Notes: a model not told the origin generated them from the letters alone. A DNA stretch of 64,000 nucleotides from an uncultured bacterium (GCA_963980215.1 CAXBYZ010000002.1:1726-65725); one strand, 5' to 3'. Numbered from the stretch's first letter, positions 2,270-52,143 are shown. Translations and numbers: made by a program.

Positions 2270-3259
2270 ATGTTCAAACCACTAAAAAAGTTTGTCAAAA
2301 AAAATAGCACTACTTCTCTAGCTTTAGCGACCATTGCTATCTCCCTTTCAGTTGGCTTATCAATCCCCTCTGCTATCAATCCTAACATTAGCCAAATTTG
2401 TTTTGACTGGGATGTCAACTGCACTCAAACTAGGGCAACAAAAGAAAAAGCCAAACAAGCAGCTACCACTAGAAAAACAACCCCCAACCCACCAACACCC
2501 ACTAGACCAGATCCCGAAGATCTTCTTCCAGAAAATGAATTTTATGTTCCACCTGCCACGACTCCTGCCCCCCCCAAATCTGATGGCTGTAGAGAAGGTG
2601 AACGTCGATGCTATGGTGGTAAAAATCAATTCTGCGCCCCCCTTCCTAATAATCAAGGTACCGAGTGGATTAGTCTTGGCGGATCATGTGATCCTTCCAA
2701 ACCTTTAACAAACTACACCACTCAAACCACAACCGCTGAAACTCAAGAGGAAGATGAAAATTATGGAGTTCCTAAATGCAACCCTACATGTAAAGCACCA
2801 TATGTTTGCACCTGGCAAACAGGTAACTCAACTACTTGTATTCTTGAACAATTTACTTGTGTAGATGAAAATACAGGTGGAAATTATAAAAACGGGGTTC
2901 CTCTATACCTTCCCGGCCCTAGCGATCCTTACTGTAACTCATACAAAACCGGAGCAAATTCGGGATACGAATTTATCTCTCGAACCTGTGTCAATGGTCA
3001 ATGGAAAACCTCCTATTCAAAGAACCCAACCAGTAATTGTCCTGATACCGGTGGATGCCGAAGCTATACGAGTTCAGAAGAATTTCAGTTTAATAATTGC
3101 TGTGAAATAATGAAAAATCAATCAGATTGGGGTCAATATGAAAGTATGTGTAAAGGCCAATCTCAAATAGATAATTCAGATTCAAACCATTCAGTCATTG
3201 AAAAAGCCAAAGGATTCTTTGATGCTATCCTCTCAATTTTTGGCCTAAAAAGAACCTAA
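2270..3259 (+). CDS. Secreted cysteine-rich protein with a Pro/Thr-rich linker
   Basis: An N-terminal hydrophobic signal/anchor (LALATIAISLSVGLSI), a PT-rich stretch, and more than 20 Cys in the C-terminal 250 aa. No recognisable catalytic motif. Confidence 0.35.
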   Translation: MFKPLKKFVKKNSTTSLALATIAISLSVGLSIPSAINPNISQICFDWDVNCTQTRATKEKAKQAATTRKTTPNPPTPTRPDPEDLLPENEFYVPPATTPAPPKSDGCREGERRCYGGKNQFCAPLPNNQGTEWISLGGSCDPSKPLTNYTTQTTTAETQEEDENYGVPKCNPTCKAPYVCTWQTGNSTTCILEQFTCVDENTGGNYKNGVPLYLPGPSDPYCNSYKTGANSGYEFISRTCVNGQWKTSYSKNPTSNCPDTGGCRSYTSSEEFQFNNCCEIMKNQSDWGQYESMCKGQSQIDNSDSNHSVIEKAKGFFDAILSIFGLKRT

Positions 3260-5661: not shown

Positions 5662-6373
5662 ATGCCCACTCAATTTCATGGGTTTTTGGATCAACTCCAT
5701 GATCACGAATCCAATTAGCTATTTCCTCTATTGAAACCTCTTCTTGTGTCAAAACCAAAACTTTAATTTTTTTTCTGCCAACATATTCAATCTTATAATT
5801 TAATGATTCATAGGGTAAAAAATTCACCAAAGGATAATTTTCTTTTTGAAAATTATCTAGTTGTTCCATCCCAATCGATCTCAATTTTTCTTCCCCAGTA
5901 GTAATTTGCCAAACATAAATCAACTGATCACCCTTATATACCATTACCTCATACCATTGACCGGATTTTAATATCTCAAGAGGATAAAAACTCACACTCA
6001 TCTCTCCCTTATTTATCAATGTTTCTCCCAAAATCACCGGATTTAATTGAATATTCATCTTATCTAAATCAATTAATTGATCAAACATCACTCGAATCAC
6101 ATCCAATTTTCTGTTAACTGTCTCATCAGCACTCGGTTCAGTTCTCATAATTTTTACGCTCTCGCCTCTTTTAATAGCCACCTGATCACTTAATATTTTC
6201 CCTAACTCTTCTTCCCTCAACACATCATTAAGTCTAAGCCCAAACATCGATTTCATCTCCCCTTTACTAACCATTTCTTGCTGTCGTTTAACCACCACTC
6301 CACCCACTACCAACAATAAACAACCAATACTAATCCCACCAATAACTAACAAAAATTTATAATCAAGTTTCAT
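5654..6373 (-). CDS. Membrane-anchored hypothetical protein
   Basis: One N-terminal TM helix (FLLVIGGISIGCLLLVVGGVVV) followed by a soluble domain. No motifs recognised. Confidence 0.35.
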   Translation of the reverse strand: MKLDYKFLLVIGGISIGCLLLVVGGVVVKRQQEMVSKGEMKSMFGLRLNDVLREEELGKILSDQVAIKRGESVKIMRTEPSADETVNRKLDVIRVMFDQLIDLDKMNIQLNPVILGETLINKGEMSVSFYPLEILKSGQWYEVMVYKGDQLIYVWQITTGEEKLRSIGMEQLDNFQKENYPLVNFLPYESLNYKIEYVGRKKIKVLVLTQEEVSIEEIANWIRDHGVDPKTHEIEWAFN

Positions 6374-6957
6374 GAACCTCCCAAAGGCCTCACGACAAAG
6401 TAGCTTAAATCTGCAGTCGGCACACTTGGTAAAGTAATCGTCCTACAATCACCTGCTCCACTATTTTGATAATTAAAGTCACATATGCGTACAAAATAAT
6501 CTCCATTTGACGTATTAATTGGATTACCGACCACCACCATAATATGCCCTTCATCTCTAGGAACCCCATCGTTTTTCGGTACTATATATTCCCCATCTAC
6601 CCATCCATTACTTCCATTCAATACAATTCCATCACCATCTTGAATTCCAATAGTGCTTGCTCCATAACTATTTATCAAATCACCTTTTTGACACCAATTA
6701 TTACTTCCAGGGTTACATACTGACGGTAAAGCACCAGCAATATTCCCATAAGTATCTACGCCAAAATGGCCAAAGCTTGGATTAATAGTAATCGCACCAT
6801 CCAAACACCTATAAACGATCTCTCCATTTTTGATATAAAAATCATAAGAAGTAGGATAATCTTCTCCAAGGCATAATTCCATATCACGATCAACCTGATT
6901 ATCATTAATCACCTCAATACTTTCCACACATAAATTAACCGCATCCACAATAATCAT
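6370..6957 (-). CDS. CHAP-like (Cys/His amidase-peptidase) domain protein, possibly the C-terminal part of the upstream ORF
   Basis: NNWCQKGD (candidate catalytic Cys) and DEGHIMVVVG (a GHVxxV-type His motif), typical of CHAP domains. It overlaps 6935-7807 by 23 nt in another frame. Confidence 0.35.
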   Translation of the reverse strand: MIIVDAVNLCVESIEVINDNQVDRDMELCLGEDYPTSYDFYIKNGEIVYRCLDGAITINPSFGHFGVDTYGNIAGALPSVCNPGSNNWCQKGDLINSYGASTIGIQDGDGIVLNGSNGWVDGEYIVPKNDGVPRDEGHIMVVVGNPINTSNGDYFVRICDFNYQNSGAGDCRTITLPSVPTADLSYFVVRPLGGS

Positions 6958-7807
6958 CTATCCAAAAACTACCTCCCAAACTTAATCTATCATCCACACT
7001 CTCCGTCACTGAAGTATTCTGATTAAATCCATTCAAAAATGATCCATAATTATCTCCATACACCCCCCACTCATCCCCTTGAACTTCATCAACCTCAATT
7101 ACAATATCAGCATAATCATGATACGAATCTCTCAATTCTTGTGGCCCATAAGTCACTTGACAATTAGGACAATAAACCCACGAACCAGTTGGCCCATCAC
7201 ATTTATATGTAGTATATCTTTCTCCAGCTCTCAACGGCCCAAACGCCACTACAGGATTACCCGATGCGTCTTTACTCACAGCATTACCATTCTTATCACG
7301 ACAAGGTATATCTCGCTCGTTATTTCCACTACTGCTATTTCCAGTAGTAACACCAGGAATTTGCCCTTGTTCTGCTACCGCATTTCCCCCTACATTATTC
7401 AAGTACTCCTCTCTCTCAGTTATAAATTCACCACTCAAACTATCATTCATTGCTCCGTCGTGATTTCCTTGCCATAAGTCAGCCAACCCCTTCCACCTAT
7501 CCGCATCTGCTTGCTTACCCTCCTTTAGTGTAATTTCTTGTTCTTTCAAAGGTTTCCTATTTTTCTCAAAAGCCTGCTTTACTTCTTCAGTTATTCGTTT
7601 TGCATCCTCTCGCCTCTGTTCTAACAAATTACTCTTATCAATTTTATCTTGTGTCTCTCTATCCAAGCCCGCTCTTCCATCTATATTAAATATCTTCGGC
7701 ACCTCTCCCTGATTACTCACCACATACTTACTCACCGGCACCATCAACGCCACTACCGCTACAATCACTAAAATCGGTAAATGAACAAAACCACGGCAAG
7801 CCTTCAT
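6935..7807 (-). CDS. Membrane-anchored coiled-coil protein (possible N-terminal portion of the CHAP protein)
   Basis: A signal/TM (LPILVIVAVVALMVPV), a charged coiled-coil segment and a Cys-rich C-terminus. Confidence 0.35.
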   Translation of the reverse strand: MKACRGFVHLPILVIVAVVALMVPVSKYVVSNQGEVPKIFNIDGRAGLDRETQDKIDKSNLLEQRREDAKRITEEVKQAFEKNRKPLKEQEITLKEGKQADADRWKGLADLWQGNHDGAMNDSLSGEFITEREEYLNNVGGNAVAEQGQIPGVTTGNSSSGNNERDIPCRDKNGNAVSKDASGNPVVAFGPLRAGERYTTYKCDGPTGSWVYCPNCQVTYGPQELRDSYHDYADIVIEVDEVQGDEWGVYGDNYGSFLNGFNQNTSVTESVDDRLSLGGSFWIDDYCGCG

Positions 7808-34956: not shown

Positions 34957-35610
34957 TTGGTCCTCTATCTTATCTACTTCTTTACCCCTTCAAGCATTAC
35001 TGCCCTAATCCCCAATCCTTTCTCAAAAAAATCTACCATCACTGTTTTAGGCACCGGCACTGTCAAAGCCACTCCTGATACCGCCCAGTTTGCCATCACC
35101 GTGGCCGCCACCGGCAATGACTCTAATCAATCTTTAAGCAACGCCAAAACCAAGGTTAACTCTCTAATCGATTCTCTCAAAAATAAAGGCTTAACCGATT
35201 CAGACTTTCAAGTAGCCGCCTACAATGCCACTTCTACTCCTACAACTGATAAACTCATCTACGCAGCCGGCACTACTATCTTAGTCACTTCCCCCGATCT
35301 CAATCTAGCTGAAGACTTGATCAACACCTCTCTTTCCGCCGGAGCTAGACTCAGTATCCCTCTTACCTACACCGTCAATTCCGTCGATAAAGTATCTTAC
35401 GAGAAAAAAGCCCGAGACGAGGCTGTCAAAAACGCCAACCAAAAAGCCCAAAACATTGCCACCGCCTACCACAAACAACTAGGTAAAATGATCGCTTACA
35501 CCGAAAACCCCTCCACCCAAGGTAGTCTTTCCGACTCTTCCTCATCTTCCTCCCGCCCCGGCGAAATCGAAATTTCTCAAACAATTCAAGTAAGTTTTTA
35601 CACTAAGTAA
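34957..35610 (+). CDS. SIMPL-domain (DUF541) protein
   Basis: ITVLGTGTVKATPDTAQFAITV...GLTDSDFQVAAYNA...AVKNANQKAQNIATAY resembles the SIMPL family. Confidence 0.5.
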   Translation: MVLYLIYFFTPSSITALIPNPFSKKSTITVLGTGTVKATPDTAQFAITVAATGNDSNQSLSNAKTKVNSLIDSLKNKGLTDSDFQVAAYNATSTPTTDKLIYAAGTTILVTSPDLNLAEDLINTSLSAGARLSIPLTYTVNSVDKVSYEKKARDEAVKNANQKAQNIATAYHKQLGKMIAYTENPSTQGSLSDSSSSSSRPGEIEISQTIQVSFYTK

Positions 35611-36342
35611 CTAATTCCTACTTATCTCATCTTTTAATAAACTTAAAAGCTCCGGCCGAATTTGTTGAATGGTTTTATTCAGCACACTCACTGGTAATAA
35701 TGGATTCAAGTCTTGGTTTAATACTTTATCGGTCACTCGCCTCTCCAGAAACTCAACCACTTTATCCAGGTACTTCACATAGCTCATCTTGGTAGAATTC
35801 TCAACTACAGCTTGATTCACTGGTAATCCATTCAAGAAAAAATACCATAGATCATAAAAATCTCTACCGGCTATTTTATTAGTTTTTTCAAATCTAGCTA
35901 AACTAGCCACCAACTTATTAGCCACCATAGTCCCTAATGTATGACCGGAACAGTACATATTAATTTCTTTCAAATGAATTTTCTCATAAGTATTTTTTAT
36001 ACTCGGTTTGTCGTTAATCTCTAATTTAATCGTATTCCTCTCACCAGCCTTTGCTTCATACCTTAAAAAAAACTGCAAGTATTTTTTACTCTCATCTTTA
36101 ATTTGAAAACCCAATTTATCAAATATCCGGTAGCAAGCCTGCCTCACCTGTTTCTTTTTACTTTTATCAGGCAGGTCAAAATCAAGATCAACAGAAAACC
36201 GATCCAACACTCCCCTCAAAGCCGCGTAGGTCCCTCCCTTAAACTGCAAACATAAACGCAAATCCTTATTGCAAAGTATCTCTCTTAGTAATCTCAACAT
36301 CACCAATTTATGTTGAGCATCTTTTGGTTGTGGCAAAATCAT
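35611..36342 (-). CDS. AbiEii-family nucleotidyltransferase (toxin of a type IV TA pair)
   Basis: LQFKGGTYAALRGVLDRFSVDLDFD, a nucleotidyltransferase motif; 4-nt overlap with the upstream AbiEi-like gene. Confidence 0.6.
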   Translation of the reverse strand: MILPQPKDAQHKLVMLRLLREILCNKDLRLCLQFKGGTYAALRGVLDRFSVDLDFDLPDKSKKKQVRQACYRIFDKLGFQIKDESKKYLQFFLRYEAKAGERNTIKLEINDKPSIKNTYEKIHLKEINMYCSGHTLGTMVANKLVASLARFEKTNKIAGRDFYDLWYFFLNGLPVNQAVVENSTKMSYVKYLDKVVEFLERRVTDKVLNQDLNPLLPVSVLNKTIQQIRPELLSLLKDEISRN

Positions 36343-36890
36343 AAATAACCTACCTCTCTCTGCATGGTTTTCAATTTATCTTTTCTGATAACTAATTGGT
36401 TATCCACATAGTAATTAGGGTTAGCCCTCAACAAATCTGCCAAAGCCCGCTCCCCACTCGCCACACTAAAAGTCTTACCATCATTAATCCCCGCCCGGTT
36501 CATTAAAAATCTTGGATTTAAATACCTACACAAAAAACTATTCCCACCTAGCTCAAACTCTTTGGCTTTCTGACCGAATAAAGTTATTTTATTCACCTGT
36601 TGCTGGATTATTCCCTCTTTAACTAAAATCGTCTCACCACTAATGTAGCTATGAGGCCCACTGACTGCACAACCCAACTCAAGCAGATCAAGCTTATTTA
36701 GGGGCAAGACGCTATACATGCCTCGCTGAACCGGATAAAGAATCTTTCGTTTTATATATCTTTGAATCGTCATCCACAAACTATTCTCATTCTCAATCTC
36801 CCACAACACTCCCAAATCCCCTGTTCTAAAGATTTTCTTCTCCTGCTCCAACAAAATCTTTTGATAGTTTGTATTTCTCTTATTATACAT
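36339..36890 (-). CDS. AbiEi-family antitoxin / transcriptional regulator
   Basis: An N-terminal wHTH with FRTGDL...RGMYSV (the AbiEi RGxY motif); operonic with the AbiEii-like gene. Confidence 0.55.
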   Translation of the reverse strand: MYNKRNTNYQKILLEQEKKIFRTGDLGVLWEIENENSLWMTIQRYIKRKILYPVQRGMYSVLPLNKLDLLELGCAVSGPHSYISGETILVKEGIIQQQVNKITLFGQKAKEFELGGNSFLCRYLNPRFLMNRAGINDGKTFSVASGERALADLLRANPNYYVDNQLVIRKDKLKTMQREVGYL

Positions 36891-37035
36891 ATAAGTATAT
36901 GATACGAAATACTTATCAAAATGTCAACCCACAACCTTCAACCCTATAGTCAGTCAAGGTTCGTAACCTTGAGTTCTTCCCCCTGACAGGGACTGTCCCT
37001 GTCAACCTACAAGGATCATCCTTGTAGGCTACAAT

Positions 37036-37533
37036 CTAAAAATCCCAAGCTGACGGATCTATTGCACGCTCAACAAAGTTTCCATTTCCATCAGGAACCA
37101 ATATAGGTAGAAATTGATTATCTAGCTTTTTCACTGAATCCAAAGTTAATACTTGAATATCATTGGGAGTATCTGCAGTTCTAAAAGCCTGTAAAAATTC
37201 ATTAACAGTCTCATCGTAATAACCCCTCATTAGCTCAGGACTTAATCCTACTCTCTCCAATGCCCTCATGTCATCAGTCATTGCTCCAATTTCTTCTAGG
37301 GCATCCGCCATTACTCTACCGCTATCAAAATTAGTAGCCTGTGCACCAAACTCTAAAATATTATCTGTAACTCCACTCATCCCTCTTAGCAAATGATTTG
37401 TTTCATGATGAACTGTAGCCACTAAATCACTCGGAGCAAATAACTGACCATAATCCAATCCAATTGTTGCTTGGTTTAACCTCTGATTAGCACTTCCTGC
37501 AATATCCCCACTACTTGACCTCCTCTTTGCCAA
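37036..37533 (-). CDS. C-terminal segment of a surface protein carrying an HExxH zinc-metalloprotease motif
   Basis: VATVHHETNHLLRG contains HETNH. The ORF uses a TTG start and overlaps the previous ORF by 58 nt in another frame. Confidence 0.35.
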   Translation of the reverse strand: MAKRRSSSGDIAGSANQRLNQATIGLDYGQLFAPSDLVATVHHETNHLLRGMSGVTDNILEFGAQATNFDSGRVMADALEEIGAMTDDMRALERVGLSPELMRGYYDETVNEFLQAFRTADTPNDIQVLTLDSVKKLDNQFLPILVPDGNGNFVERAIDPSAWDF

Positions 37534-38042
37534 GGCATTAGATATTCAACACTACCTCCAACCGCTTCAATTTCTCGAATGCGTGCAGAATTTTCAGCAG
37601 ACAATGAAATAATTCCCTTAACGTCCTTAGTTACACTAACCACATCTCCAACAGAACCTAAGGCATGTAAAGTTGTCACCCCCGCAGACAATGCACAGTC
37701 AAGATAATTATCTTCTCCAATATCTGAACAAACATCCACTGTTCTAGACACATTCACACCCGCTTCAATAGTGGACACCGCTGCATTTCCATACTGAAAT
37801 AAAGTGGGAATCGTCGCTCCAACAGTTCCAAAATAATATGAAGCGCCCCCAGTTATAAGTCCGGCAGATGCCAATCCTGCATCAACCAAAGACTGCTTAC
37901 ATGACTCTCTATCACTTGTACTAGATATATCTTCACATGCATTAACCGCTTCACGCACACTATAAATAGTATTAGCAGTATTTCCCAACATCATTAACTT
38001 TGCAGATCCTAAAGCTACCCCGCCATAAGCCACCCCCCCCAA
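37476..38042 (-). CDS. Middle segment of the same surface protein (Gly/Ala-rich)
   Basis: A TTG start that lies inside the G8 tract; in the +1 frame relative to the upstream 360-aa ORF. Confidence 0.35.
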   Translation of the reverse strand: MGGVAYGGVALGSAKLMMLGNTANTIYSVREAVNACEDISSTSDRESCKQSLVDAGLASAGLITGGASYYFGTVGATIPTLFQYGNAAVSTIEAGVNVSRTVDVCSDIGEDNYLDCALSAGVTTLHALGSVGDVVSVTKDVKGIISLSAENSARIREIEAVGGSVEYLMPWQRGGQVVGILQEVLIRG

Positions 38043-39054
38043 CCACTCCAGCAGTCACTGCCCCTCCAGCCACCGCATGTTGCCAATCCTCAAACCCTTG
38101 CTCACTACTCACTGCCGATTCCGGCAAGGGAATCGATCCATTACCCGCCAAACCTGTACCCTGATAACTCACTCCCAAATCTCCAGATATATCCAAACTA
38201 CCACTCACATTATTATTCCACCAATTACTAACTCCGTCTAAAAATGTATTCGCAGCCAACTGGGTATTTCTCGCCTCTTCCGCTGCTTTTTGTTCCGCCA
38301 ATAATCTCTGTTGAGCTACCGCCGCGGCTATCTCAGCCTGTGCGGTGGGATTGTTATCTGGACTTTGAGTGGTTGTGTATCTTGAAGTAGGTTTTTGATC
38401 TACCGCTTGGTTTTGAGCATAACCGGCCCATCTTTGAGCAGCTGCTTCGGCTACCCGATCCCGATTCTCTTCCTCTATCTGAACTCTATCGTCTTCTGAT
38501 AAATAACCGGATTGGTTTAGTCTATTGGTTGCTGCTTGAGCTGCCGCCGCGGCCGCTTCGGCTTCGGCTTTTTTTGCCTCCGCCACTACTCCTCCGGTAT
38601 CTACTGCTTCAGTCTTTGGAGTGGCCTTTGGGGTTGGCGTTGGATTTAACTCATTCTTTATCGAATCTTGAGCTTGTTGATCTAACATTCCCACCAACTC
38701 CTCCGAAACCGGACTTGTACTCGTAGTGGTCGAGGTGTTATTGGCTTCTCCATCTTCCGGATTTGCCCTCCTCTCCTCTCGTCTCTCTTTTAGAACTTGA
38801 GCAAAATCTTTTTCCACCTCTTCCTTACTCGCTTTTTTACCACTATTAGTTACTTGATCCCTTATCTTTTCTACTGTCTGATCATCAAAACCCGCCTTCT
38901 CCGCGATTCTAGCAAACCCCCGATTATCAAAACTTAAATTAGGATCAGTCACGTACTTAACTGTGGGAATCATCAAACCCACTAAGGCCACTAAAACCAC
39001 TACCGGTAAAAAAGCAAATCCTCCCGATCTTCGACTGGGCAGTTGAGTATTCAT
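37972..39054 (-). CDS. N-terminal segment of the surface protein: TM anchor plus Ala/Glu/Gln-rich coiled-coil
   Basis: An N-terminal TM (FAFLPVVVLVALVGLMIP) and a low-complexity charged, alanine-rich helical region. It ends just past the G8 tract. Confidence 0.45.
   Translation of the reverse strand: MNTQLPSRRSGGFAFLPVVVLVALVGLMIPTVKYVTDPNLSFDNRGFARIAEKAGFDDQTVEKIRDQVTNSGKKASKEEVEKDFAQVLKERREERRANPEDGEANNTSTTTSTSPVSEELVGMLDQQAQDSIKNELNPTPTPKATPKTEAVDTGGVVAEAKKAEAEAAAAAAQAATNRLNQSGYLSEDDRVQIEEENRDRVAEAAAQRWAGYAQNQAVDQKPTSRYTTTQSPDNNPTAQAEIAAAVAQQRLLAEQKAAEEARNTQLAANTFLDGVSNWWNNNVSGSLDISGDLGVSYQGTGLAGNGSIPLPESAVSSEQGFEDWQHAVAGGAVTAGVVGGGGLWRGSFRICKVNDVGKYC
38034..38041. repeat. Homopolymeric C8 tract (G8 on the coding strand) at the junction of two overlapping ORFs
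   Basis: Read directly from the sequence. With G8 the 360-aa frame runs on to the stop at 37972; with G7 it would join the 188-aa frame. Confidence 0.8.
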
Positions 39055-39713
39055 TCAATAATCTCCCCTTTAAGTTTACTCGCTTCCTGCTTAAAAAAAT
39101 CTACCAATTTTTCCTTATCCAAACTCTTCATCAAAATCGGATCATCCAAAAACTCGCCTACTCGACTCAACTGAGTCCCTAGCTGCAAACTATCAACATG
39201 CCAGTCAAACTTAATCTTTGCTAACTTTCTCAAATCGTCTATTCGATTATCAAGTTTTTCTAATATAAAAAACAAATCATAGTAATCTCTACCCCTTGGA
39301 TTTTGACTAATTGTGAATAACTTATCCACTCCAATATCCAATAAACTGTTAACCTTTAATCCGCCTTTACTCAAACCCGCCCCAATTCTTTTAAAGGGAA
39401 AATAAGTAAACTCTACTTTAAGAAAATCTTCTTTACCAAACCTCAACAAAAAAATATTCCGATTAAAACTAATCTGCAGATCTATTGTCTTATAGCCAAT
39501 TTTTTCCTTATTTTGCTTCAGCCAAGCACTAATCATTGAGGGCTCAAATTCATCTTCACAAAAAAAATCCAAATCCTCTGAAAATCTATGTTTTAAGTAA
39601 TACAAAGACAATGCCGTTCCACCAGTAAAGTAAAACTGATCAGCTAATTTAGAATCTGCTAGTAGTTTTAAAAACTTTTTTTGTCTTTTAACTACCTTTA
39701 ATTGCTTGACCAT
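39051..39713 (-). CDS. AbiEii-family nucleotidyltransferase
   Basis: FYFTGGTALSLYYLKHRFSEDLDFF. Confidence 0.55.
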   Translation of the reverse strand: MVKQLKVVKRQKKFLKLLADSKLADQFYFTGGTALSLYYLKHRFSEDLDFFCEDEFEPSMISAWLKQNKEKIGYKTIDLQISFNRNIFLLRFGKEDFLKVEFTYFPFKRIGAGLSKGGLKVNSLLDIGVDKLFTISQNPRGRDYYDLFFILEKLDNRIDDLRKLAKIKFDWHVDSLQLGTQLSRVGEFLDDPILMKSLDKEKLVDFFKQEASKLKGEIIE

Positions 39714-39904
39714 AATAAATTTTTTAAAAACCTTCTTTTATATTCATCAATATTTAGCCGATCCCAGTATTTTCTCAAACTTTTCTCTGACAATTTCTGA
39801 TCATTTAAACCAAAATTAATCATTTGCTCCAATTGAAAAACTTCAAAAGCTTCATGATTTTGCTTCAATCTCTTTGTATCTACCGACCAATTATACATAA
39901 GCAT
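39698..39904 (-). CDS. Small protein upstream of the AbiEii-like gene (possible antitoxin remnant)
   Basis: 68 aa, overlapping the downstream toxin-like gene by 16 nt. Confidence 0.25.
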   Translation of the reverse strand: MLMYNWSVDTKRLKQNHEAFEVFQLEQMINFGLNDQKLSEKSLRKYWDRLNIDEYKRRFLKNLLWSSN

Positions 39905-39919
39905 ATTTTACCATTATAA

Positions 39920-40654
39920 TTGACCCTAATGAAACTCGTCTCCATCATCATCCCTGCTTTCAAGCAGGAAAAGACTATCTTAAAAGATTTAAAGCGCATC
40001 GAAAAATCTCTAAAATCTATTAGATACCCTTACGAAATTATCGTGGTTATCGACGGAGCCATCGACCAAACCTATCGTAAAATAAAAAAACTAGCTAACC
40101 CTCAACTCAAAGTTTACCTTCTCAAAAAAAACTTAGGCAAAGGCTACGCCGTTCGCTTCGGCATGACCAAAGCTAAAGGCGACTATATTGCTTTTCTAGA
40201 CGCCGGCATGGAGATAGACCCCAACGCCATCTCCATGTTACTTGAACATCTCGAGTGGTACCACGCCGATATCGTGGTCGGCAGTAAACGCCACCTAGCC
40301 TCAAAAGTCTTTTATCCCTGGGACCGAAAGATTCTTTCATGGGGTTACTACCAACTCGTCCGCCTCCTTTTTGGGGTCAAAATTAGAGACACCCAATCCG
40401 GCATCAAGGTTTTTAAACGAAAAGTCTTAACCACTATCTTACCCAAACTGGTGGTCAAAAAATACGCCTTCGACATCGAGATCTTAGCCGTAGCCCACCG
40501 CTTAGGTTTTAAAAAAATCTACGAAGCCCCCATCAAGCTCAAGTATCACTTTGGCTCAGTCACCGACGCCGCTACCATAAACACTATTTATCACATGCTA
40601 ATAGACACACTCGCCGTCTGGTACCGATTAAAAATCTTAAAGTTTTATGACTAG
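39920..40654 (+). CDS. GT2 glycosyltransferase (dolichyl-phosphate mannose synthase-like)
   Basis: VSIIIPAFKQEKTILKDL, DGAIDQT and a DxD (FLDAGME). Confidence 0.65.
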   Translation: MTLMKLVSIIIPAFKQEKTILKDLKRIEKSLKSIRYPYEIIVVIDGAIDQTYRKIKKLANPQLKVYLLKKNLGKGYAVRFGMTKAKGDYIAFLDAGMEIDPNAISMLLEHLEWYHADIVVGSKRHLASKVFYPWDRKILSWGYYQLVRLLFGVKIRDTQSGIKVFKRKVLTTILPKLVVKKYAFDIEILAVAHRLGFKKIYEAPIKLKYHFGSVTDAATINTIYHMLIDTLAVWYRLKILKFYD

Positions 40655-41639
40655 TCAAGGAAAGGGTTCCGAACTTCAAAGTAATAGGGTTCCGAACCTC
40701 CAGCGGTCTGCAGCGTCAGCGAAAGACGGTTCGGAACCTTCAACGTTTGCCATCATCATCCCCTGTAAATCCCTAAAAGACCTTTGCCCCGAGCTCCTCC
40801 CGGCCCTAAAAACCCAATCTCTCCCTCCCGCCAAAATCATTATCATTCCTGACTCCCTTAACCATGTTAACAAAGGAGACTCCTTTGTTAAAGTTTTACC
40901 CAAGGCTGGCGACCCCGCCACCAAGCGCGACTATGCTGTTAAACACCTCAAGAAAACAGTAGGAACGGTTCCTACTGTTTTAGCCTTTATCGACTCGGAT
41001 GCCTACCCGGATAAAAACTGGCTTAAGAATGCTACTAAACACTTGAAACCAAAAAACATCGCCGCCGTCTGCGGGCCGGGCCTCACCCCACCCCAAAACT
41101 CCAAACTTCAAAAACTCTCCGGCCTCATTTGGTCCAGCTTTATTGGCGCTGGCCCTTACCGCTTCCGAAACCGCCCTTTAAAACCCCGCTTCGTCGACGA
41201 CTACCCCACCTTCAACCTCCTCGTCAAAACCAAAGACTTTCAAAAAATCGGTGGCTTTGACACCAAGTACTGGCCCGGTGAAGACACCAAGCTTTGCCTC
41301 GATCTCACCCACCAACTCCATAAAAAAATTCTCTATCACCCATCTATCATCGTCTTTCATCATCGCCGTCCCCTTTGGCTCCCTCACCTTCAGCAACTCT
41401 CCCGCTACGGCTTTCAACGCGGTCGATTTGTTAAACTTTTCCCCCAAACCTCCCGTCGCTTCTCTTACTTTTTACCCCTGCTATTTCTTCTCTCCCTACC
41501 CCTAACTTGGCCTTTCTATCTCGCCACTATCTTACTCACCGGCATCTATCATCAATCCCTTCTCCTGCCCCAAGCCCTACTCTTAACCCACCTCACCTAC
41601 GCTATCTACTTTCTCAAAGGCCTTCTAACAAACTCTTGA
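40647..41639 (+). CDS. GT2-like glycosyltransferase with C-terminal TM helices; its N-terminus is built from tandem hairpin elements
   Basis: FAIIIPC start motif, FIDSDAYP (DxD) and WPGEDTKLC. The first ~35 codons are three GGTTCCGAACC-type elements (40667-40747). It also contains a REP variant (40866). Confidence 0.5.
   Translation: MTSQGKGSELQSNRVPNLQRSAASAKDGSEPSTFAIIIPCKSLKDLCPELLPALKTQSLPPAKIIIIPDSLNHVNKGDSFVKVLPKAGDPATKRDYAVKHLKKTVGTVPTVLAFIDSDAYPDKNWLKNATKHLKPKNIAAVCGPGLTPPQNSKLQKLSGLIWSSFIGAGPYRFRNRPLKPRFVDDYPTFNLLVKTKDFQKIGGFDTKYWPGEDTKLCLDLTHQLHKKILYHPSIIVFHHRRPLWLPHLQQLSRYGFQRGRFVKLFPQTSRRFSYFLPLLFLLSLPLTWPFYLATILLTGIYHQSLLLPQALLLTHLTYAIYFLKGLLTNS
40866..40890. repeat. REP variant (GTTAACAAAGGAGACTCCTTTGTTAA) in frame inside the GT2 gene 40647-41639
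   Basis: Encodes VNKGDSFVK. Confidence 0.6.
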
Positions 41640-41704
41640 CAAATCCTCTCATTTACTATAAATTTAAACCAAATATCTTAATATTTAATATCTTTAGTTT
41701 AAAT

Positions 41705-42274
41705 ATGTCAAAGAATTTCATTCTTAAACTCTATCAACAGCCTCAAACTGTCTTTAGTTTCACCGACCTTACCCTCCTTTTTCCCCAGAAATCTCCAAAG
41801 TCACTTCAAAATAAAATTCACTATGCCACCAAAACTAATAAGCTCCAAAACCTTCGAAGAGGCATCTATGCCAAACCAAATTTTCAACTGTTCGAATTAG
41901 CCAATAAAATTTACACCCCGTCATACATTAGCTTCGAAACAGTTTTGCTAAAAGAAGATATAGTTTTCCAAACTTACCAAACTATTTTTCTTGCCTCCTA
42001 CCTCACCAGAACCGTTTCAGTTGACCAACAATCCTTTTCATTCAAAAAACTAAAAAGCTCTCTCCTTTCTAACCCTCAGGGATTAACCTTAATGCCCGGT
42101 TACACTATTGCTACCAAAGAACGAGCCTTTTTGGATGCTGTTTATCTTTACGGTGATTATCATTTTGATAACCTTAGACCCCTAGATTGGAATCTAATCA
42201 ATCAACTTACTCCTATTTATCAAAACAAGGCTTTTAATAAAAGAGTTAAGAAGTACTATACTCAGTCAAGATAA
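41705..42274 (+). CDS. AbiEi-like antitoxin-family protein (orphan)
   Basis: LRRGIYAKP (the RGxY motif) and an N-terminal wHTH-like region. The start is refined to the ATG at 41705; the upstream part of the track ORF is P/S-rich noise. Confidence 0.4.
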   Translation: MSKNFILKLYQQPQTVFSFTDLTLLFPQKSPKSLQNKIHYATKTNKLQNLRRGIYAKPNFQLFELANKIYTPSYISFETVLLKEDIVFQTYQTIFLASYLTRTVSVDQQSFSFKKLKSSLLSNPQGLTLMPGYTIATKERAFLDAVYLYGDYHFDNLRPLDWNLINQLTPIYQNKAFNKRVKKYYTQSR

Positions 42275-43931: not shown

Positions 43932-45110
43932 CTATCCTACAAACTTTAAATAATTATCTTGATCAATCACACTGTAGCTTGCTTGCTTGTAATTTTCTAG
44001 CCAATCTTTGGGGGGGGTTTTTTGTTTCATACTCCCCCACTTAAACTCATATCCAAACAACTTCCCCCCTCTCTCTTCCACCAAATCTATCTCTTTTTTG
44101 TCATAAGTTCTCCAAAAATAATAATTACCCCTAATTTTTAAGTACTCTCGCAACTTCATTCGTTCAATAAACAAAAAATTCTCCCACAACTGCCCCACAT
44201 CATCCCGGCTACTCAACTGATTAAAGTTACCAATTACCGCATTCCTCACCCCATTATCATAAAAGTAATACCTAGAGGTTTTCGAAATCTCTTTTCTTAA
44301 ATTTCTCGAAAACCCCCCCACATTGATCAACACAAAAGATTTTTCTAATAAATCCAAGTATCTCAAAACTGTATTCCTACTCATAGACAATTGACGCCCC
44401 AATTCCTGATGAGATACTTCATGTCCAATTTGAAAAGCCACTAGTCTTAGTAGGTCATAAATTTTCCTTGAATTTCTTACACTCTCTAGCTCCAAAATAT
44501 CTTTATATAAATATGAATCTCTTATCAATTCAAGATACTCTGTTTTTTCCTGAAAAGAGGTGGCCATCATCACTTCTGGATATCCCCCATAAATTAAATA
44601 ATTTTCTAAATTTTGTTGCACCACTCCCGTTCCCAACTCTTTTCTAAGCTCCATTATAGATACCGGATAAAGTTTTAAAATATTTTGTCTTCCGACTAAA
44701 GGCTCTCCTAATTGATTTGATAAGTCAAAAGAAGAAGATCCTGTAGCAATCACTTTCACTCCCGGAATCTGATCCACTACTATCTTTAAACCTTGGCCCA
44801 CATTGGCAATTTTTTGAGCTTCATCAATAAAAATCAAGTCATAATCACTAAAGAAAGGGATAATTTTTGAAAAATCAGAAGATTCTAATACCTCCCTTAA
44901 TTTAACATCTTCGCCAGTGCTCCTGTAAACCTTCCCCTTGTAACCCTCTAAAAATTTCTCCACTAAAGTTGTCTTACCTACTCTTCTGGGGCCATAAATC
45001 ACCAACACTTTATTGGGTACCAATAATTTTAATATCTTATTGCTGTAATACCTGTTAATCATTGCTTTATAGTAACATATTTTCTTATTTGCGTCAATAT
45101 ACTGACGCAA
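43932..45110 (-). CDS. AAA ATPase with a C-terminal DUF4143 domain
   Basis: The Walker A motif YGPRRVGKTTL, a Walker B (LIFIDEAQ) and a DUF4143-like C-terminus. Confidence 0.6.
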   Translation of the reverse strand: MRQYIDANKKICYYKAMINRYYSNKILKLLVPNKVLVIYGPRRVGKTTLVEKFLEGYKGKVYRSTGEDVKLREVLESSDFSKIIPFFSDYDLIFIDEAQKIANVGQGLKIVVDQIPGVKVIATGSSSFDLSNQLGEPLVGRQNILKLYPVSIMELRKELGTGVVQQNLENYLIYGGYPEVMMATSFQEKTEYLELIRDSYLYKDILELESVRNSRKIYDLLRLVAFQIGHEVSHQELGRQLSMSRNTVLRYLDLLEKSFVLINVGGFSRNLRKEISKTSRYYFYDNGVRNAVIGNFNQLSSRDDVGQLWENFLFIERMKLREYLKIRGNYYFWRTYDKKEIDLVEERGGKLFGYEFKWGSMKQKTPPKDWLENYKQASYSVIDQDNYLKFVG

Positions 45111-51099: not shown

Positions 51100-52143
51100 A
51101 TGACCGAAGTTACTCAACCACAATCTAATGAACCGATTGCTGGCTTAACGACCGAAGCTGTAAAGAGAATAAAAGGAGAAGAGCTTGATCCTAACGGCAT
51201 AGTTGAGTTATTTCAGGAACCAGCATATGCTGGTATTCCTCCTCTAGATGTATGGGCTCAAGTAGGTAATTTGGATCTAGCTCTACTAACAATAGACAAT
51301 ATTCAGCTCATTAGAAATATAGGTAATCAAATCCTAAAAGAATCTCAATCAGACACTAGTTTAGACTCAAATGCTTTAGATGCTTTAACTATAATAGCTG
51401 AAAGAGTTTCAAAAATTGGAGATTTTGTACTTGAATCTACATTTCAACCAATAGATGTAATTGGTATGTGTAAGGATATTGATCTTGAAACGCCAGATAC
51501 AATTCTCGATGAATTTAGAAAGCTTCCGAACATCATACAAGAAGAAGAATTATATATTTGGGCAACAGCTTCAAAAATTCCTCTTTCCAGTATTTCCTTC
51601 CCCAATCTAATCTTCTTAATTCAGATCGGAGCTAGAATTAATGGTTTAGAAAACCCAGAACAAGCAATCAAAAAACCTGAATTAGATGGACTTGTTGTTC
51701 TTACAGGGGAACTCAATGAACGAATCACAAGTCTGACTATTGAACAAACAGAAACTCCCAACGCCAATCTCACTCCAAATGAGATAGCTACTTTACTAGA
51801 TGAAGTAAAAACAACAATTTCTGGAAAAAAACTTCACCCTAACCAAGTCGTTAAATTATTCAAAAAAAAAGAAAGTAAGTTTTCTAATCTTCCCGCCATT
51901 AATGTTTGGAGTCAATTGGAAAATCTTTCCCCAGAAGATCTTAGTCTAGAAAACGCTCAATATATGAGTGAATTAGGAGTAAGAGCTATGAGTATAATTA
52001 CTAATAATATCCCTCGATCAGAATTATCTTCACAAGCTAAAGAATTAGTAGAAAAAATAGGAAAAAAAGTAAATAGTATTACCAATGCAATAGTTATAAA
52101 AAACAGTGACATGCAAAAAAATCAACCTCACCCCGCCACCTAA
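51100..52143 (+). CDS. Hypothetical protein with an internal duplication
   Basis: LDPNGIVELFQEP...PPLDVWAQVGNL and LHPNQVVKLFKKK...PAINVWSQLENL are repeated modules. It is preceded by the second copy of the direct repeat. Confidence 0.4.
   Translation: MTEVTQPQSNEPIAGLTTEAVKRIKGEELDPNGIVELFQEPAYAGIPPLDVWAQVGNLDLALLTIDNIQLIRNIGNQILKESQSDTSLDSNALDALTIIAERVSKIGDFVLESTFQPIDVIGMCKDIDLETPDTILDEFRKLPNIIQEEELYIWATASKIPLSSISFPNLIFLIQIGARINGLENPEQAIKKPELDGLVVLTGELNERITSLTIEQTETPNANLTPNEIATLLDEVKTTISGKKLHPNQVVKLFKKKESKFSNLPAINVWSQLENLSPEDLSLENAQYMSELGVRAMSIITNNIPRSELSSQAKELVEKIGKKVNSITNAIVIKNSDMQKNQPHPAT

What the first reader, a model, noticed from the sequence alone, without database searches (positions are those of the whole stretch)
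37036..39054. Surface metalloprotease candidate split into three overlapping ORFs; the first junction lies on a G8 homopolymer
Three ORFs are co-directional and overlapping: 360 aa (TM anchor plus Ala-rich coiled-coil), 188 aa (Gly/Ala-rich) and 165 aa (which contains HHETNHLL, an HExxH motif). Together they look like one ~700-aa exported protein. The 360/188 junction falls on a run of 8 G on the coding strand (C8 at 38034-38041). With G7 the two frames fuse, and the encoded peptide is itself poly-Gly (VVGGGGLW). Slipped-strand mispairing at such tracts is the classic phase-variation mechanism for surface proteins. The second junction (37476-37533) has no homopolymer, so it may be a true frameshift or pseudogenisation, or the 165-aa ORF may be expressed separately.
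Basis: partly seen in the sequence, partly recalled or inferred. Interest (0 to 1): 0.6.

Follow-up and report, generated by a model that had tools for sequence, protein, structure and literature searches.

The report
Effector gene broken by two frameshifts
The three overlapping ORFs are one 672-residue membrane-anchored protein gene of an uncultivated small-genome bacterium, broken here by two single-base changes in runs of G; intact and half-broken versions exist in other metagenomes, so the gene is switched off in this strain, but programmed switching is not shown.

Summary
Three co-directional overlapping minus-strand ORFs (360/188/165 aa) are present. A G8 run lies at junction 1, at 38033-38040, 1 nt off the stated coordinates.

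Public assemblies of the same species (98.97-100% nt identity) carry all four combinations of tract 1 (G7 or G8) and a second tract at 37506-37509 (G5 or G4). G7+G5 gives an uninterrupted 672-aa ORF. The window (G8/G4) is a double-frameshift allele.

Distant homologues read straight through both junctions. Of 25 homopolymers of 7 nt or more in about 20 kb, only tract 1 varies in length. Control genes with C8, G7 or A9 tracts each have one dominant full-length form; one A9 gene has a single possibly split contig.

Reversible high-frequency switching is not shown. G8 runs are no commoner than chance, the positional orthologue lacks the tract, and the allele pattern fits two single mutations plus recombination.

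The metalloprotease reading rests on HExxH and a downstream EE, both conserved in the one distant homologue. Pfam, NCBIfam and PDB gave nothing, and AlphaFold failed (pLDDT 37-45).

The gene belongs to an unannotated family with a conserved N-terminal anchor and swappable C-terminal heads, usually next to a SIMPL gene.

The parts
37036..39054 (-). Whole disrupted gene. With G7 at tract 1 and G5 at tract 2 it is one 672-aa ORF, as in P0008.
37972..39054 (-). ORF1 (360 aa): N-terminal anchor, charged and Ala-rich low-complexity linker, and the conserved IPLPxSAVSSxQGFxxW motif. The last 23 residues are out-of-frame read-through after the G8 run.
38956..39021 (-). Hydrophobic N-terminal anchor (GFAFLPVVVLVALVGLMIPTV). 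It is nearly invariant across the family (G12 F13 A14 P17 ... K33 V35 T36 D37).
38071..38133 (-). Conserved motif IPLPESAVSSEQGFEDWQHAV just upstream of tract 1. It also holds the 5-SNP block (38071-38101) that defines two haplotypes; 4 of the 5 SNPs are synonymous.
38033..38040 (-). Tract 1: G8 on the coding strand in the window, which shifts the frame. It is G7 in L006, L007, L008/L010, L013, L016 and L024, which keeps the frame.
37476..38042 (-). ORF2 (188 aa): central Gly/Ala-rich hydrophobic helical region with two Cys-x(n)-Cys loops (CEDISSTSDRESC, CSDIGEDNYLDC). It is homologous to P0022 and P0030.
37506..37509 (-). Tract 2: G4 in the window, a 1-nt deletion allele that shifts the frame. 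It is G5 in L004, L006, L007 and L025, which gives ...QVVGDIAGSANQ...
37036..37533 (-). ORF3 (165 aa): C-terminal domain. It has no convincing start or RBS of its own; the nearest GGAGG is 21 nt upstream of the TTG.
37393..37407 (-). HETNH (HExxH) motif, aligned with HELGH of P0022.
37285..37302 (-). ALEEIG, conserved as ALEEVG in P0022, 32 residues after the second His. It is a candidate third metal ligand (inference).
39051..39713 (-). Upstream AbiEii-family gene. Its stop overlaps the start codon of the gene (ATGA), so co-transcription is likely (inference).
36985..37028 (-). Two perfect hairpins just after the stop codon (CCTACAAGG-5-CCTTGTAGG and GACAGGG-5-CCCTGTC) with no T run. They may mark a transcript end or a stabiliser (inference from reading the sequence).
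   Evidence: not flagged

Best explanation
This is one gene for a 672-residue membrane-anchored, exported protein. It has an N-terminal hydrophobic anchor, a long charged and Ala-rich linker, a Gly/Ala-rich helical module with Cys loops, and a roughly 170-aa C-terminal HExxH domain. The host is an uncultivated Patescibacteria/CPR bacterium with strong G/C strand disparity.

In this strain two independent 1-nt indels in G runs inactivate the gene: G7 to G8 at 38033-38040 and G5 to G4 at 37506-37509. Both are the kind of error that slipped-strand mispairing makes during replication. The result is a 337-aa N-terminal fragment with a 23-aa out-of-frame tail, plus two downstream ORFs that lack credible translation starts.

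The intact allele, both single-frameshift alleles and the double-frameshift allele coexist in related natural populations, so these are recent, segregating loss-of-function alleles of an accessory gene.

Shown: one gene, the two indel sites, and the natural polymorphism. Inferred: slippage as the cause, loss of function, and the exported or effector role.
For: 1. Intact 672-aa ORF. It occurs in two independent assemblies (L006, L007). A 525+165 form (L008/L010) and a 360+332 form (L004, L025) also occur. All are 98.97-100% identical in nucleotides to the window.

2. Exact indel sites. Alignment places both on G runs.

3. Homologues cross the junctions. P0028 aligns at 57% identity over residues 300-348, across junction 1. 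P0019 matches residues 10-366. P0022 aligns at 28% identity over residues 339-631, across junction 2.

4. Not an artefact. The G8/G4 state recurs in at least 8 assemblies made with SPAdes, MEGAHIT and Logan. G7 is found only with one nearby SNP haplotype.

5. Specific to this gene. Only tract 1 varies in length among 25 homopolymers of 7 nt or more in 27036-47533. There are no other genuine indels in about 20 kb across 15 sequences. Control genes with C8, G7 or A9 tracts have one dominant full-length form in 15-46 contigs. One A9 gene (51100-52143) has a single contig with 259-aa and 75-aa products.

6. Recent origin. ORF2 and ORF3 (about 1 kb) are otherwise identical between intact and broken alleles.

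7. Relatives are intact. Relatives at the same or a comparable locus are single ORFs of 671-880 aa.
Against: No read-level data were available, so an assembler consensus effect or mixed populations within samples cannot be quantified. Two disabling indels both falling on G runs in one gene, with every intermediate present, is also what a two-tract contingency locus would give. The absence of any further decay downstream of the frameshifts fits reversible switching as well as recent loss. The truncated products could retain some function.
Confidence: 0.72

Rival explanations
1. This is a true phase-variable contingency locus. Tract 1 (G7/G8), and possibly tract 2 (G4/G5), switch reversibly at high frequency by slipped-strand mispairing. 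That would toggle display of the full protein (672 aa), an anchor plus central module (525 aa), or the anchor only (360 aa), as bet-hedging at the cell surface of an episymbiotic bacterium.
For: ON and OFF alleles differ only in tract length across samples of one species. All four tract combinations exist. Tract 1 is the only length-variable homopolymer among 25. The gene encodes an anchored, exported protein of a family with swappable heads. The frameshifted alleles show no other decay. G7-G8 lies at the lower edge of the tract lengths known to phase-vary in Campylobacter and Neisseria (background knowledge; PMC8355987 and PMC5084427 appeared but were not read).
Against: G runs are not enriched over chance. 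The positional orthologue P0017 has no G run of 6 or more in the gene. Another G8/C8 run at 44010-44017 and the C8 gene at 2270-3259 do not vary. Tract 1 against the SNP block 31-61 nt away shows only 3 of 4 gametes, so one mutation suffices. SNPs themselves show four-gamete violations, so recombination or consensus chimerism can generate the four tract combinations. A G4/G5 run is too short for classical high-rate slippage. The commonest allele needs two reversions to be ON.
Confidence: 0.3
2. The split is a sequencing or assembly artefact at homopolymers, and the real genome has an intact gene.
For: Homopolymers are error-prone, and several contigs have low coverage (3-4x).
Against: The same G8/G4 state occurs in at least 8 assemblies from different pipelines, including contigs at 10-11x coverage. 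G7 occurs only on one of the two SNP haplotypes. 24 other homopolymers of 7-8 nt (A, T, C and G runs) are length-invariant in the same contigs. A G4/G5 run is not an Illumina error hotspot (background knowledge).
Confidence: 0.04
3. These are three genuinely separate genes (an operon of anchor, middle and HExxH proteins), or the product is rescued by programmed ribosomal frameshifting or transcriptional slippage.
For: The ORFs overlap as translationally coupled genes can. A GGAG lies 11 nt before an in-tract GTG that public gene callers use as the ORF2 start. G8 could in principle allow polymerase slippage.
Against: Homologues are collinear single polypeptides across both junctions. A fused 672-aa allele exists. 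ORF3 has no plausible RBS or start before the HExxH motif. G4 is not a slippery site, and two different shifts (+1, then -1) would both be needed.
Confidence: 0.04

Closest known systems
Slipped-strand-mispairing phase-variable surface-protein genes with intragenic poly-G/C tracts (Neisseria, Haemophilus, Campylobacter, Bordetella)
   Same: There is a G/C homopolymer inside the ORF of an exported or anchored protein. A 1-nt length difference between closely related genomes switches the reading frame on or off.
   Different: No evidence was found for high-frequency reversible switching. The tract is not conserved in the orthologue and not enriched over chance. A second disabling indel in a G4/G5 run makes the commonest allele a double mutant.
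Ordinary frameshift pseudogenes or segregating null alleles of accessory genes
   Same: Single-base indels at short homopolymers are present, several independent disabling lesions occur in one gene, and intact alleles persist in the population.
   Different: There are no further substitutions or stops downstream of the lesions. All intermediate allele combinations are present.
Polymorphic toxin / modular effector systems (Zhang, Iyer, Aravind et al. 2012; cited from memory)
   Same: The N-terminal trafficking and anchor region and the central module are conserved, while the C-terminal heads are unrelated. The heads carry HEFGH, HEAGH, HELGH or HELIH motifs, a RIO/Bud32-like kinase signature (weak), or a transglutaminase-like signature (weak). 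Several members sit at a comparable chromosomal locus next to SIMPL.
   Different: No immunity gene follows the toxin-like gene: in L021-L023 the convergent SIMPL gene abuts it directly. No known pre-toxin, Rhs, LXG, CdiA or Tox-MPTase Pfam domains are detected.
Zincin (HExxH) metallopeptidases, minimal gluzincin type
   Same: HExxH sits in a predicted helix after short strand-like segments. H, E, H and a downstream EE are invariant between the two known members of the domain at 25-28% identity.
   Different: There is no HMM or PDB sequence match to any peptidase family. No confident structure is available. The residues between E and H (T, N) are unusual.

Membership tests
SSM phase-variable contingency gene | Simple-sequence repeat or homopolymer inside the ORF, or between promoter elements | tested here: met
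   G8 at 38033-38040 and G4 at 37506-37509 lie inside the ORF.
SSM phase-variable contingency gene | Tract length differs between closely related genomes and changes the reading frame | tested here: met
   G7/G8 and G4/G5 occur in all four combinations among about 18 assemblies at 98.97-100% identity.
SSM phase-variable contingency gene | High-frequency, reversible switching within a clonal population | not testable with these tools
   No reads were available. The haplotype data fit single events plus recombination: 3 of 4 gametes with the adjacent SNP block, and four-gamete violations among SNPs too.
SSM phase-variable contingency gene | Tract maintained by selection (conserved in orthologues, or over-represented) | tested here: not met
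   G7 runs: 9 observed against 13.5 expected. The orthologue P0017 gene has no G run of 6 or more.
Zincin metallopeptidase | HExxH motif conserved among homologues | tested here: met
   HETNH aligns with HELGH of P0022.
Zincin metallopeptidase | Third metal ligand (Glu, His or Asp) downstream | tested here: inconclusive
   A conserved ALEE(I/V)G lies 32 residues after the second His. Only two sequences are available and there is no structure.
Zincin metallopeptidase | Zincin fold (mixed beta-sheet plus active-site helix) | tested here: inconclusive
   AlphaFold2 models had pLDDT 45 and 37, too low for a fold search.
Zincin metallopeptidase | Significant match to a curated peptidase family or a solved structure | tested here: not met
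   Pfam, NCBIfam and PDB sequence searches gave no hits.
Polymorphic toxin system | Conserved N-terminal or central region with unrelated C-terminal domains among homologues | tested here: met
Polymorphic toxin system | Cognate immunity gene immediately downstream | tested here: not met
   In L021-L023 the next gene is a convergent SIMPL gene abutting the stop codon. In the window it is an AbiEi/AbiEii pair. Only L018 has an unannotated 219-aa gene downstream.
Type IV pilin-like (class III signal) protein | Basic residues, then G|F-x-x-x-E and a hydrophobic helix, recognised by N_methyl/TIGR02532 | tested here: not met
   A family-wide K/R..G-F-x-x-x-P followed by a conserved helix resembles the motif, but Glu5 is replaced by Pro and no HMM hit was found.

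The most novel reading that the evidence does not exclude
The locus is a two-switch contingency gene in a CPR/Patescibacteria episymbiont. Slippage at G7/8 and G4/5 would toggle between full-length, head-less and anchor-only forms of a previously undescribed effector family. That family has a pilin-like conserved N-terminal helix, a Cys-looped Gly/Ala-rich membrane-active module and interchangeable enzymatic heads (zincin, kinase, transglutaminase), encoded in several relatives next to a SIMPL gene. This would be the first evidence of phase-variable host-interaction proteins in this radiation; the paper search found none.
Probability: 0.15. Interest if true: 0.65.

Novelty: new member of a known kind. 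Interest (0 to 1): 0.38.

Why it matters
If the tract changes are only null alleles, the practical lesson is for annotation. The public records carry this gene as three hypothetical proteins. The 90% protein cluster is represented by the 360-aa fragment, which hid the C-terminal domain from homology searches.

If the tracts do switch, this would extend homopolymer phase variation to the uncultivated Patescibacteria. It would also single out a surface protein family that probably matters for their attachment to, or attack on, host cells.

Either way the family is a useful lead for how these bacteria interact with other cells. It has a conserved anchor and central module, swappable enzymatic heads, no Pfam annotation, and in several relatives a position next to SIMPL.

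Tried and rejected
1. Word-index homology searches. The fused C-terminal half returned only the 360-aa cluster representative. A two-sequence profile of the C-terminal domain found nothing.

2. Family and structure databases. Pfam, NCBIfam and PDB sequence searches of the protein, its parts and its relatives gave no significant family. The weak DUF7217 and HisKA hits are below threshold and were dismissed.

3. AlphaFold2. The ORF2+ORF3 model (10-sequence alignment, pLDDT 45) and the C-terminal domain model (2 sequences, pLDDT 37) were both too poor. No fold search was run on them.

4. Collection scans. GTDB genome-contig scans with P0008 and with a 905-aa window protein found nothing. A metagenome-contig scan with the N-terminal profile gave one short contig that stops before the tracts.

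5. Sample provenance. Paper searches for the run and sample identifiers gave no hits.

6. A reading I withdrew. I first took L012 (TAGAA haplotype with G8) as proof of recurrent mutation at tract 1. Only 3 of the 4 gametes are present, so a single event suffices.

7. Pilin-like N-terminus. This was considered, but the HMMs do not support it.

Full report
**1. Observation**

The minus strand of 37036-39054 carries three overlapping co-directional ORFs of 360, 188 and 165 aa. ORF1 and ORF3 share a frame, and only ORF2 is displaced, by +1. Removing one G joins ORF1 to ORF2 as ...AGVVGGVAYGGVALG....

G runs are not unusual here. The coding strand of this window is 28.7% G and 12.4% C. Runs of seven G occur 9 times, against 13.5 +/- 4.4 in dinucleotide shuffles.

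**2. The same gene in other samples**

The 90% protein cluster holding these ORFs has members of 672, 525, 369, 360, 332, 193, 185 and 165 aa. I fetched their contigs from ENA, Logan and JGI assemblies. They are 98.97-100% identical to the window over 1.4-20 kb.

Apart from contig-end effects and a roughly 26-nt deletion in low-coverage L024, two single-base length differences separate the forms. Tract 1 is G8 or G7. A second tract at 37506-37509, GTAGT(G4/G5)ATATT, is G4 or G5.

| Tract state | Products | Where seen |
|---|---|---|
| G7/G5 | intact 672-aa ORF | L006, L007 |
| G7/G4 | 525 + 165 aa | L008/L010, L013, L016, L024 |
| G8/G5 | 360 + 332 aa | L004, L025 |
| G8/G4 | 360 + 185 + 165 aa | the window and at least 7 other samples |

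It is a 1-nt deletion in a short G run. I had predicted that repair from the sequence before seeing P0008, and P0008 confirmed it.

**3. One gene, not three**

An exhaustive HMMER search with the intact protein found 15 relatives.
- P0028 aligns at 57% identity over residues 300-348, straight across junction 1.
- P0019 matches residues 10-366.
- P0022 aligns at 28% identity over residues 339-631, straight across junction 2.
- All relatives I inspected are single ORFs of 671-880 aa.
- ORF3 has no credible ribosome-binding site or start upstream of its HExxH motif.

**4. Artefact or biology?**

The evidence favours biology.
- The G8/G4 state recurs in SPAdes, MEGAHIT and Logan assemblies, including contigs at 10-11x coverage.
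- G7 occurs only with one of two SNP haplotypes, defined by five SNPs at 38071-38101, of which four are synonymous.
- Among the 25 homopolymers of 7 nt or more in 27036-47533, each covered by 1-13 other assemblies, only tract 1 varies in length.
- No other genuine indel exists in about 20 kb across 15 sequences.
- Control genes that contain C8, G7 or A9 tracts, and the flanking AbiE genes, each have one dominant full-length form in 15-46 contigs. One exception is a single contig that splits the A9 gene at 51100-52143 into 259-aa and 75-aa products.
- A second family-like gene in the window (the 290-aa ORF at 6935-7807) is likewise stable.

**5. Phase variation or null alleles?**

For phase variation:
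- ON and OFF alleles differ only at the tracts.
- Every tract combination exists.
- The 1 kb downstream of the frameshifts is otherwise identical in intact and broken alleles.

Against phase variation:
- The tract is not enriched over chance.
- The positional orthologue P0017 has no G run of 6 or more.
- Tract 1 and the SNP block 31-61 nt away show only three of four gametes. L012 carries TAGAA with G8, and no GGAGG haplotype carries G7. One G7-to-G8 event therefore suffices.
- SNP pairs themselves violate the four-gamete test. Recombination, or chimeric consensus of mixed strains, can produce the four tract combinations without recurrent mutation.
- A G4/G5 run is too short for classical high-rate slippage.
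- The commonest allele needs two reversions to be ON.

My conclusion is that these are recent, slippage-type null alleles segregating in the population. I give genuine programmed phase variation about 0.3. Read-level data are needed to decide.

**6. What the protein is**

No Pfam, NCBIfam or PDB sequence match exists for it or for its relatives' corresponding regions. The architecture, is:
- a nearly invariant N-terminal basic-G-F-x-x-x-P hydrophobic helix;
- a charged and Ala-rich linker;
- the conserved IPLPxSAVSSxQGFxxW motif;
- a Gly/Ala-rich helical module with two Cys-x(n)-Cys loops, which suggests an extracytoplasmic, disulfide-stabilised region (inference);
- a C-terminal head.

Relatives keep the front but carry different heads. 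These have HEFGH (P0017), HEAGH (P0019), HELGH (P0022) or HELIH (P0030) motifs. P0020 has a weak RIO/Bud32-like kinase signature (E = 2e-4 to 5e-3). P0029 has a weak transglutaminase or CEP76-peptidase-like signature (E = 4e-4).

The locus is comparable across relatives. In L018 and L021-L023 the gene lies directly beside a SIMPL gene: convergent and abutting in L021-L023, divergent upstream in L018. In the window, SIMPL (34957-35610) is separated from the gene only by an AbiEi-like/AbiEii pair. L017 shares the upstream ComEC-MBL-TPR-GT2 synteny.

This is a polymorphic-toxin-like modular organisation, but without an adjacent immunity gene. I therefore describe it as working like a modular effector and do not file it as a polymorphic toxin system.

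**7. Metalloprotease claim**

H, E and H of HExxH, and an EE 32 residues downstream, are invariant between the two known members of this C-terminal domain at 25-28% identity. Several sister heads carry canonical HE[FLA]GH. This is suggestive only.

**8. Organism**

The window has 12.4% G against 28.7% C on the + strand in every 2-kb bin, whichever strand the genes are on. The orthologous locus L017 shows the same disparity. Such disparity is described for the CPR order UBA1400: Ch65 (15.0% G, 29.8% C), Collierbacteria and Beckwithbacteria (PMC7143001). A member of the 90% cluster of the neighbouring AbiEii protein is labelled Candidatus Peregrinibacteria in NCBI. The exact taxon is unresolved, because the GTDB scans found nothing.

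**9. Verdict**

Phase variation and the metalloprotease function are both plausible but unproven. Novelty is modest: a new instance of a known kind of lesion, in an unannotated and mildly interesting protein family of an under-studied lineage.

Noticed in passing
window 1-64000; also L017: There is extreme G/C strand disparity: the + strand has G 7952 and C 18368, and GC skew is -0.13 to -0.60 in every 2-kb bin, whichever strand the genes are on. Minus-strand proteins are rich in G, V, A, E and R; plus-strand proteins are rich in P, L, S, T, H and Q. The disparity is stronger than the published case Ch65 (15.0% G, 29.8% C) of CPR order UBA1400, where unidirectional replication was proposed (PMC7143001).
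   Followed up: partly
window 6370-7807 (-): A 290-aa ORF (6935-7807) shares the family's N-terminal anchor (31% identity to P0008 residues 12-96; MKACRGFVHLPILVIVAVVALMVPVSKYV). It overlaps a +1-frame 195-aa ORF (6370-6957) by 23 nt. Unlike the finding, this arrangement is the same in 30-38 public contigs, so it is either two real genes or an old, fixed frameshift.
   Followed up: partly
window 38782-38848 (-): A window-specific patch of 17 substitutions in ORF1 (VTNSGKKASKEEVEKD against VTGGSKGQKKEEVEKD in all other assemblies) resembles the orthologue P0017 (VTNSNKGASKEEVEKD). This suggests a gene-conversion or recombination tract. Several public contigs also break inside this gene, at about 38560-38600.
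   Followed up: partly
window 40647-42274 (+); L001 3608-4379: The 330-aa + strand ORF is a bona fide GT2 glycosyltransferase (Glyco_trans_2_3, 32.5 bits against a cut-off of 27). Public gene calls on the same DNA list two small opposite-strand ORFs (89 and 81 aa) instead. Gene finders seem to be misled by the C-rich coding strand. The ORF also overlaps a 255-aa ORF in the same direction by 133 nt.
   Followed up: partly
window 34957-39904; L018, L021-L023: In relatives the family gene lies directly beside a SIMPL (PF04402) gene. In the window an AbiEi-like/AbiEii pair (35611-36890), with its own strong promoter-like site (36927-36899, 11 of 12 matches), is inserted between them. A second AbiEii gene (39051-39713), preceded by a 68-aa ORF, overlaps the gene's start codon (ATGA).
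   Followed up: partly
window 38956-39030 (-); relatives P0017-P0030: The family-wide N-terminus (basic residues, then G-F-x-x-x-P and a near-invariant hydrophobic helix) resembles a class III (prepilin) signal with Pro in place of Glu5. Pfam N_methyl and TIGR02532 do not match it.
   Followed up: partly
window 51100-52143 (+), A9 at 51862-51870: One public contig (3079 nt) carries 259-aa and 75-aa products in the cluster of this 347-aa protein. This may be a frameshift variant at the A9 run. All 15 other contigs have the full-length form.
   Followed up: no
L024 1-60 (about window 38114-38139): A low-coverage contig (ERZ4200993, 3.7x) has a roughly 26-nt deletion and several substitutions just upstream of tract 1. 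These disrupt the conserved IPLP...QGF motif region. It may be another disabling allele or a contig-end artefact.
   Followed up: no
window 36985-37028 (-): Two adjacent perfect hairpins lie immediately after the gene's stop codon, with no T tract (9-bp stem with 5-nt loop; 7-bp stem with 5-nt loop).
   Followed up: no
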